This document shows, piece after piece, positions 1 to 59,983 of a stretch of 64,000 nucleotides of DNA; positions within the stretch are counted from its first letter, which is position 1; each line of letters begins with the position of its first letter. The position numbers were made by a program, and so were the translations under genes. Source of the stretch: Escherichia coli (GTDB lineage: Bacteria; Pseudomonadota; Gammaproteobacteria; Enterobacterales; Enterobacteriaceae). The notes under the pieces are model-generated. The model was not told the DNA's origin. It searched no databases and worked only from the letters and a program-made list of their open reading frames with translations. Location of the stretch: NCBI RefSeq assembly GCF_003790525.1, contig NZ_CP033635.1. The stretch is one strand, 5' to 3'.

Positions 1-109
1 AGCGGCGAAAGTTTACGGACATGAATATATAACGCGCAGGATTAAAGGGGTTACGCAAACCAACGTGACAACAACAGACGACTGCGACGCGTTTTTATAG
101 TTTTAGACA

Positions 110-7399: not shown

Positions 7400-7487
7400 T
7401 GGCGGTGAGGGGGGGATTCGAACCCCCGATACGTTGCCGTATACACACTTTCCAGGCGTGCTCCTTCAGCCACTCGGACACCTCACC
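7400..7487 (-). tRNA. serW: tRNA-Ser (GGA anticodon)
   Basis: Reverse complement gives GGTGAGGTGTCCGAGTGGCTGAAGGAGCACGCCTGGAAAGTGTG...GGTTCGAATCCCCCCCTCACCGCCA with long variable arm. Confidence 0.9.
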
Positions 7488-8243: not shown

Positions 8244-8948
8244 TCATTCTTGTGGTGAAAACAAGCACCGTGGTACCCAGAAATTATTCGGCAATCGTCC
8301 GAGGCGCATTTGATTGAGATAATTTAGATAATCCCGGCGGGGAATTTCGCAGGCACCAAGCGAAGCTGTGTGATCGTTAAGGACCTGGCAGTCGATAAGC
8401 TTACCGCCATGACCAATAAATTCCTCACAGAATACCAGAAGCGCCGTTTTAGACGCATTTTCCATCCGGCTGAACATGGACTCGCCACAAAATAGCGTTC
8501 CCTGGGCCACGCCGTACATACCGCCGACAAGCTCATCTTCACGCCAGACTTCAATAGAGTGGGCATGACCGAGTTCGTGAAGGCGATGGTAGGCTTCGAC
8601 CACGCCACGCGTGATCCAGGTTCCTTCTTCGCGATCGCTGGCACAGCCTTCAATGACCTGACCAAAAGCGTAATTCATCGTGACTCGATAGGGCGAGCGT
8701 TTATGAAATCGCTTCATACTACGGCTGATATGCAGTGATTCTGGCCATAGCACCGCGCGGGGATCGGGCGACCACCAGAGGATGGGGTCGCCTGGAGAAA
8801 ACCACGGAAAAATACCACGCTGGTAAGCCATTAACAGGCGCGCAGGGCTAAGATCGCCCCCCAGTGCCAGCAGGCCGTTAGGCTCACGTAATGCGCCTTC
8901 CGGGGAAGGGAAGGCTATTGAATGGCGAGAAAGCTGAACCAGGCGCAT
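8244..8948 (-). CDS. aat: Leucyl/phenylalanyl-tRNA-protein transferase
   Basis: 234-aa translation; conserved position between infA and cydC. Confidence 0.9.
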
Positions 8949-50365: not shown

Positions 50366-50793
50366 TGTTGTTTCCTCCCGTTCTGTGCTGGTCTGGCGAA
50401 TGAATTGCGTTGTGGTGAAAAGACCATTCGCGCCAGCGCGGCCTTGTGATTGACTGTGTTCAGTGTTCTGGCCAGTCCGCCGTTGTGCCTGCGTGTCCGC
50501 TCTTCGTGATATCTCTGCATGATTTTCCCGGCAGGCGTGCACGGCTCCGGTTCCTCCGGCGAACGGCGCGGACGAATGACGACAGTCCAGCTATGGCTCT
50601 CGCTGCCCGGCCGCCTGTTGAGTATGTCGGCGATGGTGGTCTCCGTGGTGCGATCGGGGCTGACTATCGTGATTTCCAGCTCGTCGCCCGGTTGTGGCCT
50701 TGTGGCAGGCCTGAACAGTGTCAGCACCGGCATACGCTGGCGCATGATGGCCTCAAACTGTGGGCGCTGCATGGTGCAGCAAAATCGCGTCAT
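50362..50793 (-). CDS. Hypothetical protein (143 aa), translationally coupled to A
   Basis: Start overlaps the A stop. Confidence 0.45.
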   Translation of the reverse strand: MTRFCCTMQRPQFEAIMRQRMPVLTLFRPATRPQPGDELEITIVSPDRTTETTIADILNRRPGSESHSWTVVIRPRRSPEEPEPCTPAGKIMQRYHEERTRRHNGGLARTLNTVNHKAALARMVFSPQRNSFARPAQNGRKQQ

Positions 50794-53300
50794 GCTCCCG
50801 CCTCCACTGGCTGCTCTGTGATGATGTGACGGGCTGACTCATCCCAGTACGCTGTTCCCCCGTTATCCAGACGCACACGGGCACCGTTACGCACGGAGAT
50901 GATGGCCGCGTCAGGCAACTGCACACCCAGCGCATCAAGTTCGCGGGCGATTTGCGTGTCCGTCGCGGTATCCGCAGGCACGACAATCCCCACCCTTACA
51001 GGGGTGTCAGATGCCGGTGTGGTGTCGTTTTGTCCGGTTTTTGCGCCCGACGGCTGATTTTTAATCTGATTACGCAGTTTTCTCCGATCGCCCCTGCTTA
51101 ACGTATTCAGCCAGCTTTCCAGGTTCTCTTCGGGAAGCGTCAGTCGTCCGGGGTCCTGCCTGTTTTCTGGTCCGTGATTGTCTGTTTTTTCATCCCGGGG
51201 ACAGTTATTGCCACGAGTCCAAGGGGCGACGGGGTCGCCCTGAAGGTCAAAACCCTCGCCCGTGCGGTTGTCTGGTATTGTTTCTTTTTTAACCAGTTTC
51301 CACTCGTCCGGATGGGTGCATATGGTGTACCGCTCTCCGAGCGACGGGGCGCAGATTCCGTAGATACGTTGAGGGAATTCACCGTAGTCGTTGGCTTCGT
51401 CTGCGGTTTCGTATGCGGTGCGGACCAGATACTGGTTGCGCGGAATGAGCACACCACCCTGTTTCATGATGTAGGTGGCAAAACATCCCACATCTGCGGC
51501 AGCCATAATGGCGTCAATATCGTCATGATCGAGGTGCTTCGGTGATGCCGGGTTGCGCTCCATCTGGCTTGCAAGGCGGCGGAGTTCACGCCATACCTGG
51601 CGGGGCGGAATGCCGAAAAACTGGAACTGACGGATGCGGTGAAGGCTTGCCCAGGCAATGGCGTTCTCCACGGTTTCCGCCATGGTTTTCCCGGATTCCT
51701 CATCAACGTAAGGTTTTCCGGTTTTCGGATCATTGTTGTGGAAAGCGCTGGCGTCCAGGTTCTTACCGATATAGGTTGCGATATAGCTTGCCGGTGTGCC
51801 TTTTTCCGGGTCTATCTTCTCGCATTTAAAGCGCGGTGAAATATCGTCCCCCAGTTCGTGGCGATCTGATTTAATTGCTGCTTCGCGCATAATTTCGATG
51901 ATGCGCTCTGCGTTCTCCGGGGAAGTGAATACCAGCATATGCCAGTGTGGCGTGCCGTCATGGTGTGGCTCAGCGGTTCGCACGCCGTACCAGCCCAGCC
52001 CCTCTTTTTTTATTTTTTTTCTTACGGCTGCGAAGAAGTCGTAAACCAGATAATCACTGGCATCTCGTACTGTGGCACCGTTGTATTTCGGGTTCAGGCT
52101 GCCGTTCTCGTTCACGCTGTGAAAGCGGGAAGGGGTGGTTACTGTGATGAAGAATGCGACGTCAGCCCGTAATTCGGCCACCATCTCCATCCCTCTGACG
52201 CAGACCATCATTTCATTGCGGCGGTTGCGTGGATTACCCAGGCCAGCCCAGTACACGTCCTCCAGACTCAGGCGCTCGCCGTCTTCGTTTTCAATATCCC
52301 AGCTTTTGAGAAAGTCACAGGTGCGCTGGCGCTTCTCGCGGAACTCCAGTAGTGACTCATGGCTGATATAGGGGGATTGTTTACGTGACACTCTGCCGGC
52401 GGCGCGCAGTAACTCCTCCCGCCAGAGATCGGCGACGTGGCGTAACTGGTTGTTCCACCAGGTCGCGCAGGTGATGCGCAGTACCGCACCCGGAACCCGT
52501 TCAGGGTCCGGCGGTGTGCGTCGGTTGTGCCTGATTTCGAGTTCCGGCCAGTATGGCGGGACCATGCCCAGAATTAAGGCTGTGCGTGCCACCTTCTGGT
52601 AGGCCAGCAGCCAGATAACCGGGCTGTCATTATCCTTGCCTGTCCGTTCAAGAACTTCATCACATATGCGTTCAAATTCTGCGGCGAATGCCTGGGCTGT
52701 CAGTGTGGCGATGCGCTGGATTTCGTCACGGGTGAGTTGCGGCAGTGTGAGCAGTTCTTCAAGGCGATGGCGCACGACGGTGGTTTTGAATGCCGGCGTT
52801 GCAAAGCGGTCGTTAACCCTTTCAATACGTTTCAGGCGCGCACGCAGTCCACGGCGAACGAAATTATCGGCCACGTATGCGCTGTTGTTTTTTACACCTT
52901 CACTGCGGGCACTTTGCTGTTTCCGGTTCAGTCGTGCCAGATCACGGATCAACACACTGGCAAGAAACGAGGGCAGGGTGCGAAGTTCGGCTATCGCCTC
53001 CGATACCGCCGTTGGCGGATTTTCGCGTCTGTGTCGTGCCAGCTTATCCAGCCTTATCTGCCGCTCTTCGTCCCGGTGAAGGTGTGAATTAATTTGCTTA
53101 CCTTTGTCCGTGGTTGTCAGGAAGGCCACGGTTTCTTCATCCAGCCGGGCCTCAGTGCGAATGTCTTCGGTGAGGTAGTCACGGATTGCCCGTTGTAATG
53201 CGGTTGGCTTCTGCGGTAATGCTCTGCCGAATGTCTCAGGATCAATAACCGGCAGCGGGGCGTTCCACGGGTACGCCAGGTGCGTGTGGTGATGGCTCAT
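50790..53300 (-). CDS. A: Replication initiation protein (P2 A-like)
   Basis: 836 aa; position downstream of the regulatory genes. Confidence 0.85.
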   Translation of the reverse strand: MSHHHTHLAYPWNAPLPVIDPETFGRALPQKPTALQRAIRDYLTEDIRTEARLDEETVAFLTTTDKGKQINSHLHRDEERQIRLDKLARHRRENPPTAVSEAIAELRTLPSFLASVLIRDLARLNRKQQSARSEGVKNNSAYVADNFVRRGLRARLKRIERVNDRFATPAFKTTVVRHRLEELLTLPQLTRDEIQRIATLTAQAFAAEFERICDEVLERTGKDNDSPVIWLLAYQKVARTALILGMVPPYWPELEIRHNRRTPPDPERVPGAVLRITCATWWNNQLRHVADLWREELLRAAGRVSRKQSPYISHESLLEFREKRQRTCDFLKSWDIENEDGERLSLEDVYWAGLGNPRNRRNEMMVCVRGMEMVAELRADVAFFITVTTPSRFHSVNENGSLNPKYNGATVRDASDYLVYDFFAAVRKKIKKEGLGWYGVRTAEPHHDGTPHWHMLVFTSPENAERIIEIMREAAIKSDRHELGDDISPRFKCEKIDPEKGTPASYIATYIGKNLDASAFHNNDPKTGKPYVDEESGKTMAETVENAIAWASLHRIRQFQFFGIPPRQVWRELRRLASQMERNPASPKHLDHDDIDAIMAAADVGCFATYIMKQGGVLIPRNQYLVRTAYETADEANDYGEFPQRIYGICAPSLGERYTICTHPDEWKLVKKETIPDNRTGEGFDLQGDPVAPWTRGNNCPRDEKTDNHGPENRQDPGRLTLPEENLESWLNTLSRGDRRKLRNQIKNQPSGAKTGQNDTTPASDTPVRVGIVVPADTATDTQIARELDALGVQLPDAAIISVRNGARVRLDNGGTAYWDESARHIITEQPVEAGA

Positions 53301-53305
53301 TCCGC

Positions 53306-53719
53306 TTACTCCCCTGCTGTTGCCTTCTGAAATGCAGCCCGGTACAGCACAAGAAGGCGCTGGTATTCAGCGATAAAGTCTTCTGCTGTTTTAATCCCTT
53401 TCACGACCACGCTGTGGGTGGTCATTTCCAGAACGAGCACCATTTCTGACGATGACCAGCTGATAACGCTGCTGTCGCACCCGTTGATGTGGAACAGGCC
53501 CAGCTCCAGGCTGTGGTTCTGGTCTCTGACATCCACGCGGTAACGGTCGTCAACGGTGAAGGAAAAATCCCCGTATGTGGCAGCGCTGCGGGCTGCCTGT
53601 TTACAGGCGCGGCGGTAATAGTCGTGCAGGTCATTGAGACGGGAAGCGAGGCGTGGATCCACCGCCCACATCCAGTTAAAAAAATCCTGAATATCTGAAA
53701 GTCCCTTAACGCTCTTCAT
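53306..53719 (-). CDS. Hypothetical early-region protein (137 aa)
   Basis: ORF track; immediately upstream of A. Confidence 0.5.
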   Translation of the reverse strand: MKSVKGLSDIQDFFNWMWAVDPRLASRLNDLHDYYRRACKQAARSAATYGDFSFTVDDRYRVDVRDQNHSLELGLFHINGCDSSVISWSSSEMVLVLEMTTHSVVVKGIKTAEDFIAEYQRLLVLYRAAFQKATAGE

Positions 53720-53787
53720 GAGAACCTCCGGAAACGGACGTGCGGAAGCCTCCCGCGTACGGGGGCGGGATGGCTCCGGGATGTTGA

Positions 53788-54012
53788 TTAGTGGTGGTGC
53801 TGGTTAATGAGGTCCTGCAGCTCGCGCAGGTCATCCACCAGGTAGCTGAATACAGCGGCGGAATACATGTTTGACAGTGCGTGGCTGCGCTCATGCAGCA
53901 TATTGATGTGCATGATATGCGCGACGCGGAATGCGCGGAAAAGTCTGCGGTTGATTTCAGTCTGGATGTGACGACGCGCAGCGTATGCGCGCTGTTGTTT
54001 GCGGTTTGCCAT
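53788..54012 (-). CDS. Hypothetical early-region protein (74 aa)
   Basis: ORF track. Confidence 0.45.
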   Translation of the reverse strand: MANRKQQRAYAARRHIQTEINRRLFRAFRVAHIMHINMLHERSHALSNMYSAAVFSYLVDDLRELQDLINQHHH

Positions 54013-54020
54013 GGTGTGGC

Positions 54021-54245
54021 CTCTGTAGTTGCAAGTTTTGAAAACTCACCATCCAGAGGTTGCAATTCTGGGTGGCGAGACGTACAGGGTTGCAACCACC
54101 GGCAACTACAGAAACCGGCCCGACCGAAGTCGGCCCCATACGCCCCGCCATAATTCTGGCGCGAAAAAGACGTGGCGATACGGTACGCACAAAAAAACCG
54201 CTGGCGCGGTTGTGCGCTGTAGTTGTCAGCGGGGGTTGCAATCCC
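54021..54245. repeat. Cluster of GTTGCAA(C)/TAGTTGCAA motifs in a 320-bp intergenic region
   Basis: Six copies in both orientations at about 54026, 54057, 54087, 54101, 54219 and 54233. Confidence 0.45.
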
Positions 54246-54332
54246 GGCACCCGTTTTATGAGGTGCAGCGGAAATGTAACCTGACTGATTGCGGCATGGC
54301 AAGCGGTTTTTTTGTGTGTGCATAGTGGTTAC

Positions 54333-54971
54333 TCAGTCCGGTAGCAGTTCGCAAAGCACGGTGTCAGCGGCGGTATATCGTGCGTAAAGCCGGGCGAGGA
54401 CCCATCTTTTAAGGGATATCCCGGCCGTGTCCCGGATGTACTTTCTGATTTCGCTGAATGTCATCCCCTGTTCATCGCGCAGTTCAGTTACCAACTCCAC
54501 CAGGTGATCGCTGTATCTGGCTCTGTGGTGGAGTTCCCCGTATTTCCTGAACCGGTACCCTCTTTTTCTCAGGTTCAGTCCCACCGTGGATGTCGAGCGC
54601 CCCAGTTCATTCGCGAGTTCCCGGATGGTTTTTGTGTGGCGATTCCTGATGAGCGTGTTGAGTTCTTTTGTATTCAGGGGGGGTTGTTTGGTGTGGATAA
54701 CCCCCTGAGAGAGCAAAAGACGGATGCGGCTTCGTATTGCTGGCCCGGTTCTCTGAAAGTGTTTTGTCAGTTCTGGTACGGTGTGGGAGGGGTATAAACC
54801 GACCAGTAGAGCATCTTCCTGTTGTGTCCAGGCTCTGACATGCTTCGGTGGTACACCTGATACACCCATAGGTTTAAGTGCGGGCATAGTTGTTCTCCGT
54901 TGTTCTGTTTTGTGTCGGGGTAATGGTCCGGTTTTTTCGCCTTCAACCGGAAAAGAAGGGCGTGTTAGCAT
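54333..54971 (-). CDS. Early-region protein with repeated helix-turn-helix-like segments; start possibly internal (MPALKPMG)
   Basis: Basic, HTH-like stretches. Confidence 0.45.
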   Translation of the reverse strand: MLTRPSFPVEGEKTGPLPRHKTEQRRTTMPALKPMGVSGVPPKHVRAWTQQEDALLVGLYPSHTVPELTKHFQRTGPAIRSRIRLLLSQGVIHTKQPPLNTKELNTLIRNRHTKTIRELANELGRSTSTVGLNLRKRGYRFRKYGELHHRARYSDHLVELVTELRDEQGMTFSEIRKYIRDTAGISLKRWVLARLYARYTAADTVLCELLPD

Positions 54972-55121: not shown

Positions 55122-55604
55122 ATGCAAAACAACCAACGTAAAAAATCGAGAGAACGGGATGAGGTCATGTTCCGTCTCTGGTACAGCTACTGGCTGGAGC
55201 GCATCGCGGCGGTATTCAATCGTCGCCTTGATGCGATCATCAACATTTTGATCCTTGCGGCGGGTGCGTTCATCGTAGCCGGCTGGCATTTCGGCTGGGT
55301 GCTTGGGGCAGTGGTGGTGGTTCTCGGAGCCTGTAATTTCATATGTCGTTTCGGGCAACGTGCGCAGGCGGCGAGTGAGCATGCCCATCGCTACAATGAG
55401 TTGATTACCAAAAGCGCCCTCCTCAGTACGGAAGCTCTGCTGGCACGCCTTCCAGAGCTTGAGATGCATGACTCTCCTGTCCTGGAATGCATGGAAAATG
55501 TGGCGTACAACAAAGCCTGTATGTCTCTGAATATCAGTCATCGTGAATCTCTCTCTTTCGCTGAAAAGATGATGGCTGCCATTACGATCGGTTTTTCCCG
55601 ATAA
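55122..55604 (+). CDS. Small membrane protein (160 aa, two adjacent TM helices), opposite strand to all neighbours
   Basis: SD GAGGG; INILILAAGAFIVAGW and GWVLGAVVVVLGACNFI hydrophobic segments. Confidence 0.55.
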   Translation: MQNNQRKKSRERDEVMFRLWYSYWLERIAAVFNRRLDAIINILILAAGAFIVAGWHFGWVLGAVVVVLGACNFICRFGQRAQAASEHAHRYNELITKSALLSTEALLARLPELEMHDSPVLECMENVAYNKACMSLNISHRESLSFAEKMMAAITIGFSR

Positions 55605-58177: not shown

Positions 58178-58280
58178 TTGTTATCCTCTTGCATTGGTGC
58201 GCTTGTTGCGCCTTTTGATGATTTTTGATGACTTGTAAAGATAATCGTACGGTTATCTTTTGTAGGAGATTAATCCCCAA
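58178..58280. promoter_or_regulatory. Divergent early promoter/operator (lysis-lysogeny switch) region
   Basis: Between cox-like and C genes; palindrome AGATAATCGTACGGTTATCT and direct repeats TGATGA. Confidence 0.45.
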
Positions 58281-58622
58281 ATGAGTATCTTGTCAATAGA
58301 CTATGCGAAAAAGTTGCGTTTGATACGCAAGACGGAAGGGCTAACTCAAAAGCAATTTGCTGATATTACAGGGTTATCTCTGGCAACTGTCAGGAATTAT
58401 GAGTCAGGGCAAAAGATCGCCAGAGCAAAGATTGTTGAGGCCGTCCTTCAAGTGGATCGGTTTGAAAAATATATGTTCTGGCTAATCAAAGATAAGACGC
58501 TACCTGTTGCCGGTCAGATCGCCCCGGCTCTCTCTCTTGATGGCTCCACGCAGTCGGAGGACGATCAGGTTTCAACCCGCAATACCCAAAAATCACCCCA
58601 ATCAGGCCGCAATGCTGGCTGA
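58281..58622 (+). CDS. C: Immunity repressor (P2 C-like)
   Basis: HTH LTQKQFADITGLSLATVRNYESGQ and GQIAPAL as in P2 C. Confidence 0.8.
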   Translation: MSILSIDYAKKLRLIRKTEGLTQKQFADITGLSLATVRNYESGQKIARAKIVEAVLQVDRFEKYMFWLIKDKTLPVAGQIAPALSLDGSTQSEDDQVSTRNTQKSPQSGRNAG

Positions 58623-59687: not shown

Positions 59688-59773
59688 TTATTTGTGATAA
59701 TTTGCTCCCCTTGTTTTTGTTTACTTATTGAAAAATAAGGAAATCAGCAAGAGGAGTAAGTACCGTTAAATCT

Positions 59774-59788
59774 CCTGCGGGCGCTTTT
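59774..59788. other. attR core CCTGCGGGCGCTTTT
   Basis: Identical 15-mer at 22385-22399. Confidence 0.7.
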
Positions 59789-59983
59789 TTTGTCTCCCTT
59801 TGATACCGAACAATAATTACTCCTCACTTACACGTAATACTACTTTCGAGTGAAAATCTACCTATCTCTTTGATTTTCAAATTATTCGATATATACAAGC
59901 CTATATAGCGACCTGCTATAGAAATAATTACACAATACGGTTTGTTACTGGAATCAATCGTGAGCAAGCTTGAGTGAGCCATT

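What the first reader, a model, noticed from the sequence alone, without database searches (positions are those of the whole stretch)
54013..54332. GTTGCAA motif cluster in a 320-bp intergenic region of the early operon
Six copies of GTTGCAA(C) or TAGTTGCAA in both orientations sit between the HTH-like gene and the downstream small genes leading to A. This could be an operator array, an internal promoter with regulator sites, or an origin-like element.
Basis: seen in the sequence. Interest (0 to 1): 0.45.

Follow-up and report, generated by a model that had tools for sequence, protein, structure and literature searches.

The report
P4-type antisense RNA immunity module
The repeated GTTGCAA-type motifs are the complementary pairing boxes of two known small phage RNAs (IsrK/seqA and C4/CI), which form a P4/P1-type antisense "immunity" switch upstream of an anti-repressor-like gene and the replication gene of a P2-family prophage; this is a known, curated kind of element that is simply not annotated here.

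Summary
There are four exact GTTGCAA sites (five strand hits) in 320 bp against about 0.08 expected. The linked 9-mer CAACTACAG occurs three times in the 64-kb window, all in this region.

The interpretation as operators or an origin is not supported. On the minus strand the region encodes an IsrK-like RNA (54266..54191, Rfam RF01394) with an intrinsic terminator. It is followed by a C4/CI-like antisense RNA (54155..54068, RF01695).

- b1 and a1 lie inside IsrK.
- a' and b' lie inside C4.
- b2 and a2 lie downstream, and a2 covers the Shine-Dalgarno of a 74-aa gene related to the P4 epsilon "derepression" protein.

Among 17 near-identical cassettes from P88-like phages, variation is concentrated in these boxes and is compensatory (about 92-94% paired against about 70% in shuffles). 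Across 66 allele types, each locus matches its own boxes.

P4 carries the same order of elements. P2 and 186 lack it.

Most likely function: RNA-based immunity that blocks translation of the epsilon-like gene and, by polarity, lowers expression of replication gene A.

Verdict: a known kind, and a new unannotated member. Interest is low.

The parts
54273..54302 (-). Predicted sigma-70 promoter of the RNA module: -35 TTGCCA (54302..54297), 18-nt spacer, -10 TACATT (54278..54273). It ends 6 nt before the first base of the IsrK match.
   Evidence: The scan found this single hit; the region-wide expectation is 0.9, so the hit is not significant alone. Both hexamers are invariant in 17 P88-like cassettes, while the spacer differs in two of them. 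The geometry matches P4 (TTGCCT-18-TATAGT, 6 nt, then the IsrK match). Homology to P88-like phages begins about 54323-54316, just upstream of the -35.
54191..54266 (-). IsrK-like / seqA-like small RNA and leader. It has a 5' hairpin, then box b1 (UUGCAACC, 54241..54234), box a1 (CAACUACAG, 54225..54217), and an intrinsic terminator (stem 54211..54196 followed by U7).
   Evidence: Rfam RF01394 isrK scores 60.1 bits (gathering 50), full length 1-77. The terminator was found by the scan. The fold is -27.0 kcal/mol, z -2.7.
54068..54155 (-). C4/CI-like antisense RNA (seqB). A 17-bp closing stem encloses two hairpins. Box a' is in the 12-nt loop of hairpin 2 (UUUCUGUAGUUG, 54114..54103). Box b' is in the single-stranded junction (GGUUGCAACC, 54097..54088).
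   Evidence: Rfam RF01695 C4 scores 80.1 bits (gathering 45), full length 1-87. The MFE structure equals the Rfam consensus structure: -45.8 kcal/mol, z -3.8, 0 of 200 shuffles fold as well.
54020..54066 (-). seqC-like target region on the mRNA leader. It holds box b2 (UUGCAACC, 54065..54058), a conserved spacer hairpin, and box a2 (GCAACUACAGA, 54032..54022). Box a2 overlaps the Shine-Dalgarno AGAGG (54024..54020), which lies 7 nt before the AUG at 54012.
   Evidence: Read directly from the sequence. The seqB:seqC duplex is -38.2 kcal/mol, and 0 of 1000 shuffled targets are as stable. Covariation was shown. The same b2/a2 positions and SD overlap occur in nearly all of 66 allele types.
53788..54012 (-). 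74-aa gene for a 'derepression protein' related to P4 epsilon. It is the first gene controlled by the module.
   Evidence: Pfam PF25738 Derepression, E 9.8e-6. phrog_3688, E 4e-41. 29% identity to P4 epsilon, pairwise E 2e-7. The homologue in P88 and in RefSeq genomes is annotated 'derepression protein'.
50790..53719 (-). Downstream genes of the same transcription unit: a 137-aa ORF (53719..53306, phrog_3237, unknown function) and the 836-aa replication endonuclease gpA (53300..50790). Both are presumed subject to polarity from the module.
   Evidence: phrog_91 'nicking at origin of replication', E 2.5e-241. RefSeq annotates it as 'replication endonuclease'. Only 5 nt separate the stop of the 137-aa ORF from the start of A.

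Best explanation
The intergenic region is a P4/P1-type antisense-RNA immunity cassette carried by a P88-like (Xuanwuvirus, P2-family) prophage of E. coli.

Anatomy:
- An internal promoter transcribes the minus strand.
- Most transcripts stop at the intrinsic terminator and give a roughly 76-nt IsrK/seqA-like RNA.
- Read-through transcripts contain the C4/CI-like RNA, which by analogy with P1 and P4 is cut out as a stable RNA of about 80-88 nt.

Proposed action:
- The two exposed segments of C4, loop a' and junction b', pair with b2 and a2 on any transcript that enters the downstream genes, whether it starts at this promoter or at the early promoter Pe.
- Because a2 overlaps the Shine-Dalgarno sequence, translation of the epsilon-like derepression gene is blocked.
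- The untranslated RNA is then prone to Rho-dependent termination, which also keeps the 137-aa ORF and replication gene A low in the lysogen.
- The same C4 segments pair with b1 and a1 in the IsrK/seqA part. Within a read-through transcript this gives a long seqA:seqB helix. Between molecules, free IsrK can titrate C4, or C4 can act on nascent leaders.
- The a/b box sequences are the specificity (heteroimmunity) determinants. GTTGCAA is the b allele of this prophage.

Shown here: the RNA family matches, the structures, the box complementarity and its covariation, the SD overlap, the gene context, and the homology to the P4 arrangement.

Inferred from P1, P4 and Gifsy-1 work: processing of C4, the translational block, Rho polarity onto A, and the anti-repressor role of the epsilon-like protein.
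For: - Rfam C4 (80.1 bits) and isrK (60.1 bits) are found full-length above gathering score, in tandem on the minus strand.
- The C4 MFE fold equals the family consensus, z -3.8.
- The six motif copies map one-to-one to b1, a1, a', b', b2 and a2.
- In 17 P88-like cassettes (91% identical) variable columns are enriched in the boxes, odds ratio 11, p 3e-12.
- The seqB:seqC pairs are 91.6% paired against 68.7% in shuffles (0/500) and at most 47% when slid. 10 of 19 pairs show changes on both sides.
- The seqA:seqB pairs are 93.8% paired against 70.8% in shuffles (0/500). 10 of 17 pairs are compensatory.
- Across 66 a'/b' allele types from IMG/VR, a complementary match of at least 7 nt to the locus's own allele is found for a2 in 60, b2 in 64, a1 in 53 and b1 in 66. 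Foreign alleles reach that in 1-4% of cases. Positions are conserved, and a2 abuts or overlaps the SD.
- Duplex energies are -38.2 kcal/mol (seqC) and -37.1 kcal/mol (IsrK). Both beat 1000/1000 shuffles.
- The whole-leader MFE forms the cis seqA:seqB helix, z -4.7.
- P4 has the same order of elements: promoter, isrK hit, C4 hit, b2/a2 on an SD, epsilon, then the replication gene.
- C4 modules elsewhere sit directly upstream of Ant/Rha-type anti-repressors, the P4 ORF or epsilon-like genes.
[quoted passage not shown] It also shows IsrK read-through, processing of a downstream ~80-nt RNA and control of an anti-repressor in Gifsy-1 (PMC4825925).
Against: - There are no expression data for this locus.
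- The promoter hit is not significant on its own: 1 found against 0.9 expected.
- The Rfam model for a1/b1 targets (RF03163) does not match the window even at E <= 1, although it matches some other loci.
- In Gifsy-1 the experimentally shown role of IsrK is activation of translation, and over-expressed STnc1160 (the C4 counterpart) did not repress. The direction and weight of each interaction may therefore differ here.
- The SD is also partly sequestered by a local hairpin, CUCUG:CAGAG. Control may therefore not rest on C4 alone.
- One natural cassette (L034) has IsrK boxes that do not match its own C4, so seqA pairing is not obligatory.
- Polarity onto gene A and the target of the epsilon-like protein are pure inference.
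Confidence: 0.82

Rival explanations
1. Gifsy-1-type activator logic dominates. The read-through transcript folds into a translationally silent form through the cis seqA:seqB helix and the SD hairpin. The short IsrK-like RNA acts in trans to open it and switch on the epsilon-like gene. The C4-like segment would then be mainly a cis structural element rather than a trans repressor.
For: The MFE of the full leader forms the cis seqA:seqB helix, and the SD is partly paired locally. This is the experimentally supported model for the homologous isrK-orf45(STnc1160)-anrP locus.
Against: - b2/a2 complementarity to C4 is conserved and co-varies as strongly as seqA:seqB. The activator-only model does not require that.
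- a2 overlaps the SD in nearly all allele types, as in P1 and P4, where trans repression by C4/CI is established (established knowledge; PMC3632133, PMC12197685).
- The two models are not mutually exclusive.
Confidence: 0.3
2. The motifs are double-stranded DNA operators for a protein: the adjacent 212-aa HTH protein, the prophage C repressor or Cox. This would be an operator array around an internal promoter.
For: There are short repeats in both orientations in non-coding DNA next to a predicted promoter and an HTH-like gene.
Against: - Only the boxes vary among near-identical cassettes, and they vary as antiparallel complements with the order b-a / a'-b' / b-a.
- Five of the six boxes lie downstream of the promoter, inside structured RNAs or on an SD.
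- The HTH gene is replaced by an unrelated gene in P88 while the boxes stay.
- There is no exact GTTGCAA in the C/Cox switch region around 58180-58280. Allowing one mismatch to the 10-nt b box gives only a hit at 58568-58577, inside the C gene.
- P2 and 186 operators are mapped at Pe/pR, not here.
Confidence: 0.03
3. The cluster is an origin-like element (iterons) for gpA-dependent replication.
For: It is a repeated motif close to the replication gene.
Against: In P2 and 186 the origin is a nick site inside gene A. gpA-type rolling-circle initiators do not use iteron arrays (established knowledge). The repeats are fully explained as RNA pairing boxes.
Confidence: 0.01
4. The cassette is an inert relic of recombination with a P4-like satellite and no longer functions in this prophage.
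For: The module is absent from P2 and 186 and resembles the P4 cassette.
Against: - All elements are intact here: promoter hexamers, terminator, full-length RNA models, six matching boxes, the SD and the ORF.
- The compensatory diversification into at least 11 allele combinations within the P88-type group implies continuing selection on pairing.
- The region is present in 1206 of 5426 complete E. coli genomes.
Confidence: 0.05

Closest known systems
Satellite phage P4 immunity region (PLE promoter, seqA, CI RNA with seqB, seqC, then epsilon and alpha)
   Same: - The same two Rfam families occur in the same order and strand relative to the genes.
- The promoter geometry is the same.
- b1/a1 and b2/a2 are complementary to the C4 loop and junction, and a2 lies on an SD.
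- An epsilon-family gene and the element's replication gene lie downstream in the same operon.
   Different: - The host element here is a complete P2-family phage with its own C/Cox switch.
- The ~65-aa ORF that P4 places between seqC and epsilon is absent, so a2 covers the SD of the epsilon-like gene itself.
- The IsrK-to-C4 spacer is 35 nt here against about 107 nt in P4.
- The replication gene is the gpA nickase, not the alpha primase-helicase.
- The 137-aa ORF is unrelated to P4 orf151.
- No a or b allele is shared with P4-type loci.
immI of phages P1 and P7 (c4 RNA, then icd and ant)
   Same: It uses a C4-family antisense RNA made from the same transcript as its target. a'/b' pair with a2/b2 over the RBS of a small first ORF. 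The result is translational block plus polarity on an anti-repressor, and box differences give heteroimmunity (established knowledge; summarised in PMC12197685). Rfam places the a1/b1 target family in the same clan as C4.
   Different: The downstream genes differ: Icd/Ant in P1 against an epsilon-like protein and gpA here.
Gifsy-1 isrK-orf45(STnc1160)-anrP locus of Salmonella
   Same: It has an IsrK-family RNA with a leaky terminator and a read-through transcript that pairs IsrK with the downstream ~80-nt processed RNA. The module controls an anti-repressor. The same cis helix is predicted here.
   Different: That locus is in a lambdoid prophage, and the downstream gene is an AnrP-type anti-repressor reached by translational coupling. 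The demonstrated role of IsrK there is activation.
IsrK-C4 modules of Stx-converting and other lambdoid phages, and of N15
   Same: They share 70-76% nucleotide similarity over IsrK through seqC. One GenBank record (LC710660.1) already annotates 'isrK' and 'C4 antisense RNA' at the homologous place. The downstream genes are annotated antirepressor or Rha.
   Different: The downstream effector family and the phage type differ.

Membership tests
Rfam RF01695 C4 antisense RNA | Covariance-model score at or above the curated gathering threshold, over the full model | tested here: met
   80.1 bits against a threshold of 45, model positions 1-87 of 87, at 54155..54068 on the minus strand.
Rfam RF01695 C4 antisense RNA | Long closing stem enclosing two hairpins, with an exposed loop (a') and an exposed junction (b') | tested here: met
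   The MFE and centroid structures equal the consensus structure: -45.8 kcal/mol, z -3.8.
Rfam RF01695 C4 antisense RNA | a' and b' are complementary to a2/b2 downstream on the same transcript, overlapping the RBS of the first ORF | tested here: met
   b2 lies at 54065..54058. a2 lies at 54032..54022 and overlaps the SD at 54024..54020. The duplex is -38.2 kcal/mol. Covariation gives 91.6% paired against 68.7% in shuffles.
Rfam RF01695 C4 antisense RNA | Excision from the precursor transcript (RNase P at the 5' end) to give a stable trans-acting RNA | not testable with these tools
   This needs Northern blots or 5'-end mapping.
Rfam RF01394 isrK (seqA of P4) | Covariance-model score at or above gathering, including the 3' intrinsic terminator | tested here: met
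   60.1 bits against a threshold of 50, model positions 1-77 of 77, at 54266..54191. The terminator stem at 54211..54196 with its U run was found independently.
Rfam RF01394 isrK (seqA of P4) | Contains sequences complementary to the downstream C4/CI RNA (a1, b1) | tested here: met
   b1 lies at 54241..54234 and a1 at 54225..54217. Covariation gives 93.8% paired against 70.8% in shuffles, and 10 of 17 pairs are compensatory.
Rfam RF01394 isrK (seqA of P4) | Hfq binding and accumulation as a short RNA | not testable with these tools
   No expression or binding data are available.
Rfam RF03163 c4-a1b1 (a1, b1 targets of C4) | Covariance-model match upstream of C4 | tested here: not met
   There is no match in 53700-54500 even at E <= 1, although the model hits 6 of 13 other C4 loci. 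The locus is therefore not filed under this model. The a1 and b1 boxes are nevertheless present inside the isrK match.
P4-type RNA immunity system (IsrK-C4 system) | Own promoter, then seqA, CI(seqB) and seqC, then genes for derepression and replication in one operon | tested here: met
   The order was verified in the window and side by side in P4. The promoter is predicted only.
P4-type RNA immunity system (IsrK-C4 system) | CI-dependent premature (Rho-dependent) termination that prevents expression of the replication gene in the lysogen | not testable with these tools
   Inferred from P1 and P4. It needs transcript mapping with and without C4 and with and without bicyclomycin.
Pfam PF25738 Derepression protein family (P4 epsilon) | Profile match of the 74-aa product | tested here: met
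   E 9.8e-6, residues 9-65. 29% identity to P4 epsilon over 66 aa. The match is modest, and binding to a C repressor was not tested.
   The operators lie at Pe/pR and the ori nick lies inside A. The P2 and 186 early regions have no C4 or isrK element.

The most novel reading that the evidence does not exclude
P88-like P2-family phages may run a two-layer immunity like P1 (immC plus immI). The first layer would be the protein C/Cox switch. The second would be a P4-type RNA switch that gates the phage's own epsilon-type anti-repressor and, by polarity, the gpA replicase.

If so, induction would be decided by an IsrK/C4 RNA titration. The at least 11 a/b allele combinations would define RNA heteroimmunity classes within one phage genus.

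It would also mean that the immunity-plus-epsilon cassette of satellite P4, the tool it uses to derepress its helper, shares a direct ancestor with a cassette native to helper-family phages.
Probability: 0.35. Interest if true: 0.45.

Novelty: new member of a known kind. Interest (0 to 1): 0.2.

Why it matters
- It corrects the annotation. About 260 nt that look like an empty intergenic region hold two RNA genes and a translational operator. In some records this stretch is covered by spurious ORFs, such as P88 gp13 and 'ash family protein'.
- It shows that a widespread P2-family prophage lineage carries the RNA immunity logic known from P4, P1, N15 and lambdoid phages. Related sequence is present in 1206 of 5426 complete E. 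coli genomes.
- In this lineage the module sits directly in front of an epsilon-like derepressor and the replicase.
- This matters for predicting prophage inducibility, superinfection immunity classes and helper-satellite relationships.
- The mechanism itself is textbook.

Tried and rejected
1. Operator array and origin readings were rejected (see rivals).
2. A MAFFT alignment of all 66 allele types gave only a weak formal covariation signal: 58.6% paired against 47.6% in shuffles. Subgroups are out of register by 1-3 nt around a2. It was replaced by a register-free own-versus-foreign allele test and by the in-register P88-type subgroup.
3. I looked for cross-talk between this phage type and P4-type satellites through shared specificity alleles. 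No a or b allele is shared between 23 epsilon-type and 38 P4-type loci. The exact seqB allele of the window occurs in only 3 IMG/VR contigs, all P88-like.
4. The 137-aa ORF was compared with P4 orf151 and is not related. It has no Pfam match.
5. The 212-aa, 160-aa and 137-aa neighbours were tested as defence genes and have no PADLOC hits. NCBIfam gave nothing for six neighbouring ORFs, which did not include the 160-aa one.
6. Literature searches for seqA/seqB/seqC and for Xuanwuvirus found no description of this module in P88-like phages. The original P4 papers are not held.
7. P1 itself was not examined.

Full report
OBSERVATION. The motif cluster is real.
- Exact GTTGCAA occurs at 54028, 54059, 54089 and 54235 on the + strand. 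At 54089/54090 it counts on both strands, because GGTTGCAACC at 54088-54097 is a 10-nt palindrome.
- These are 5 of the 10 hits in the whole 64-kb window.
- Dinucleotide shuffles predict 15.8 hits per 64 kb, or about 0.08 per 320 bp, so four sites give Poisson P of about 1.5e-6.
CAACTACAG occurs three times in the window, all here: 54023-54031 (-), 54103-54111 (+) and 54217-54225 (-). The expected count is 0.36, and 0 of 100 shuffles reach three.
- The 'six copies' are therefore three a-type and three b-type boxes.

WHAT IS THERE. All genes around the region are on the minus strand:
- a 212-aa HTH-like ORF (54971..54333);
- the 320-bp gap;
- a 74-aa ORF (54012..53788);
- a 137-aa ORF (53719..53306);
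- an 836-aa gpA-type replication endonuclease (53300..50790; phrog_91, E 2.5e-241).

A scan of the whole window against Rfam at curated thresholds places two RNA genes in the gap, both on the minus strand:
- isrK (RF01394) at 54266..54191, 60.1 bits against a gathering score of 50;
- C4 antisense RNA (RF01695) at 54155..54068, 80.1 bits against 45.

The other elements of the module are as follows.
- A sigma-70-like promoter, TTGCCA-18 nt-TACATT (54302..54273), ends 6 nt before the isrK match.
- An intrinsic terminator, stem 54211..54196 plus U7, ends the isrK match.
- C4 folds into the family's consensus shape: -45.8 kcal/mol, z -3.8. The loop UUUCUGUAGUUG (a', 54114..54103) and the junction GGUUGCAACC (b', 54097..54088) are unpaired.
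- Read as RNA, IsrK contains UUGCAACC (b1, 54241..54234) and CAACUACAG (a1, 54225..54217).
- The leader downstream of C4 contains UUGCAACC (b2, 54065..54058) and GCAACUACAGA (a2, 54032..54022).
- a2 overlaps the Shine-Dalgarno AGAGG (54024..54020), which lies 7 nt before the AUG of the 74-aa ORF.

IS THE PAIRING REAL? A scan of IMG/VR with the conserved C4 core returned 120 loci, with 66 different a'/b' combinations.
- A register-free test asked whether each locus carries, at the expected places, a perfect complement of at least 7 nt to its own loop and junction. It does for a2 in 60, b2 in 64, a1 in 53 and b1 in 66 of 66 types. Alleles taken from other loci reach this in only 1-4% of cases.
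- b2 lies at +33..37 and a2 at +54..72 (mostly +62..69) from the core in nearly every type. a2 runs into a GGAG/AGAGG a few bases before an ATG.
- The 17 distinct cassettes that share the window's downstream gene are 91% identical and align without register problems. Variable columns there are concentrated in the boxes: odds ratio 11, p 3e-12.
- Counting the proposed pairs on that alignment gives, for seqB:seqC, 91.6% paired cells against 68.7% in shuffles (0/500) and at most 47% with slid partners. 10 of 19 pairs change on both sides.
- For seqA:seqB the figures are 93.8% against 70.8% (0/500), with 10 of 17 compensatory pairs.
- P88 is an example. Its b' is UGUGGAAA and its b1 and b2 are both UUUCCAC, where the window has GGUUGCAA and UUGCAACC.
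- Predicted duplexes of the window's seqB with the seqC region (-38.2 kcal/mol) and with IsrK (-37.1 kcal/mol) are better than all 1000 shuffled targets.
- An all-type MAFFT alignment gave a weaker signal, 58.6% against 47.6%, because subgroups are out of register.

CONTEXT. The window is an E. coli chromosome segment, 99.9% identical to strain 135 (NZ_CP080260).
- It carries a P2-family prophage next to dmsA with the gene order integrase, C-type HTH repressor, Cox, small early genes, this cassette, A, then the portal gene.
- The closest named phage is P88 (Xuanwuvirus, Peduoviridae). It has the same cassette, with the isrK and C4 hits followed by a 'derepression protein', an ORF and A.
- Similarity to P88-like phages starts at about 54323-54316, just upstream of the -35, and runs to the end of the 74-aa gene. 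The gene upstream differs. The unit is therefore promoter + IsrK + C4 + seqC + the 74-aa gene.
- The 74-aa protein matches Pfam PF25738 'Derepression' (E 9.8e-6). It is 29% identical to P4 epsilon, the protein with which P4 derepresses its P2 helper (function from established knowledge).
- P4 itself shows the same layout: TTGCCT-18-TATAGT, isrK hit (8692..8615), C4 hit (8507..8420), b2 GUGAGAA, and a2 UUCACAGGA on the SD of a 65-aa ORF. That ORF is followed directly by epsilon and further on by alpha.
- The early regions of P2 and 186 contain neither RNA. Their operators are mapped at Pe/pR and their origins inside gene A.
- Related modules (70-76% identity) occur in Stx-converting and other lambdoid phages and in N15, upstream of Rha/antirepressor genes. 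One GenBank record already labels them isrK and C4.
- In the IMG/VR sample the first gene after C4 is a P4-type ORF, an epsilon-like gene or an Ant/Rha-type anti-repressor.
- Some 1206 of 5426 complete E. coli genomes have a match to the region.

HOW IT MOST LIKELY WORKS.
Shown here:
- two structured RNAs of known families in tandem behind a conserved promoter;
- a leaky-terminator architecture;
- three sets of mutually complementary, co-varying boxes;
- one box on the ribosome-binding site of an epsilon-like gene;
- the replicase gene downstream in the same orientation.

Inferred from P1 c4/icd/ant and P4 CI/seqA/seqC (established knowledge; PMC3632133; PMC12197685) and from Gifsy-1 (PMC4825925):
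- The C4-like RNA is cut out of read-through transcripts.
- It pairs through a' and b' with a2 and b2, blocks translation of the epsilon-like gene and so exposes the RNA to Rho. This keeps the downstream ORF and gpA low in the lysogen and upon superinfection by a phage of the same allele.
- IsrK/seqA carries decoy copies of the targets. In cis they form a long helix with seqB, which is the MFE of the full leader (z -4.7). In trans they can titrate C4, or be the site where C4 promotes termination.
- The epsilon-like protein would act as an anti-repressor.
- The box sequences are the specificity determinants. GTTGCAA is simply the b allele of this prophage. One of the four exact copies (54028) comes from the flank of the a allele.

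RIVALS.
- Gifsy-1 logic, with IsrK as a trans activator of a self-silenced mRNA, is compatible and may coexist. However, it does not explain the conserved, co-varying b2/a2:C4 complementarity.
- Protein operators are very unlikely. The boxes vary as antiparallel complements, and five of six lie downstream of the promoter, inside RNAs or on an SD. The HTH gene is not linked to the cassette, and the motif is absent from the C/Cox switch.
- An origin is excluded by analogy with the mapped P2 and 186 origins and by the nature of gpA.
- A dead relic is unlikely given the intact parts and the at least 11 compensated allele combinations.

CAVEATS.
- There are no expression data.
- The promoter scan alone is not significant.
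- The Rfam c4-a1b1 model does not match the window.
- The SD is also partly closed by a local hairpin.
- One natural cassette (L034) carries IsrK boxes that mismatch its own C4.
- In this allele the b box is self-complementary, so other pairings (C4:C4, b1:b2) are possible.

COMPARISON AND NOVELTY.
- The element passes the tested membership criteria for Rfam C4 and isrK and for the 'IsrK-C4 immunity system' described for P4 and noted in P1, P7, N15 and lambdoid prophages.
- I found no paper that describes it in P88-like P2-family phages. It is unannotated in the RefSeq and P88 records.
- It is therefore a new, unannotated member of a known kind.
- Its particular points are the P2-family host, the direct coupling of seqC to an epsilon-like gene without the intervening P4 ORF, and gpA as the downstream replicase.
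- No specificity allele is shared with P4-type loci in the sample, so there is no sign of helper-satellite RNA cross-talk.

VERDICT. It is best explained as a P4/P1-type antisense RNA immunity cassette. Interest is low (0.2).

Noticed in passing
window 54088-54097: In this allele the b box GGTTGCAACC is a perfect 10-nt palindrome. As a result b', b1 and b2 are all self- and mutually complementary, so C4:C4 kissing or IsrK-b1:seqC-b2 pairing is possible. The other P88-type b alleles seen in the alignment (e.g. UGUGGAAA, GUUGAGAA, ACUGCGAA) are not palindromic.
   Followed up: partly
L034 10292-10594 (-), row in alignment A2: This is a natural chimeric cassette. Its IsrK boxes (b1 TTTCCAC, a1 CAAACGAAG) do not match its own C4 (a' CTTTGCTCT, b' GTTGAGAA), but they match alleles seen in P88 and L087. 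Its b2 and a2 do match its own C4. This suggests recombination between IsrK and C4, and it shows that seqA matching is dispensable or acts on another element.
   Followed up: no
L002 (phage P88) 5033-5221, minus strand; RefSeq hits H47, H60: The P88 record annotates a 'hypothetical protein' (gp13) on the opposite strand exactly over the IsrK and C4 RNAs. Several RefSeq E. coli genomes annotate an 'ash family protein' under the same region. These are probably spurious ORF calls over RNA genes. In the window, the 205-aa ORF 53706..54323 (-) and the other ORFs that span the gap are likewise unlikely to be genes.
   Followed up: partly
window 54333-54971 (-): This 212-aa ORF matches phrog_323 ('transcriptional regulator, D5-like', E 2.4e-27) and has only weak Pfam HTH hits. 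It is not annotated in the 99.9%-identical RefSeq record. It occupies a variable slot just upstream of the cassette, where P88 has an unrelated 'lipoprotein/serine protease' gene.
   Followed up: partly
window 55122-55604 (+): This 160-aa ORF (phrog_6315, unknown function; annotated as hypothetical in RefSeq) is oriented against the early operon, so Pe transcripts must cross it head-on to reach the cassette and A. It has no PADLOC hit. It may be a moron or cargo gene.
   Followed up: partly
window 59759-59893 (-): There is an Rfam STnc130 sRNA match (126.9 bits) just outside the integrase end of the prophage, toward dmsA.
   Followed up: no
window 7400-7487 (-): This tRNA-Ser (GGA) is the only tRNA gene in the window.
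   Followed up: no
NZ_CP080260.1 (hit H41): The chromosome that matches the window holds a second place similar to the 701-nt query. The same genome probably carries a second related cassette, and its allele was not checked.
   Followed up: no
L012 3532-3594; L056 720-803; L004 1542-1727: Other structured RNAs were seen in viral contigs that carry C4 modules: a type II hammerhead ribozyme (63.7 bits), Proteo-phage-1 RNA (49.1 bits) and STnc100 (72.5 bits).
   Followed up: no
window 54020-54058 (-): The invariant CUCUG just 3' of b2 pairs with the CAGAG of the a2/SD region. A conserved GGUGAGUUUU...AACUUGC hairpin lies between them. This local structure partly sequesters the SD even without C4, and it brings b2 and a2 together.
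   Followed up: partly
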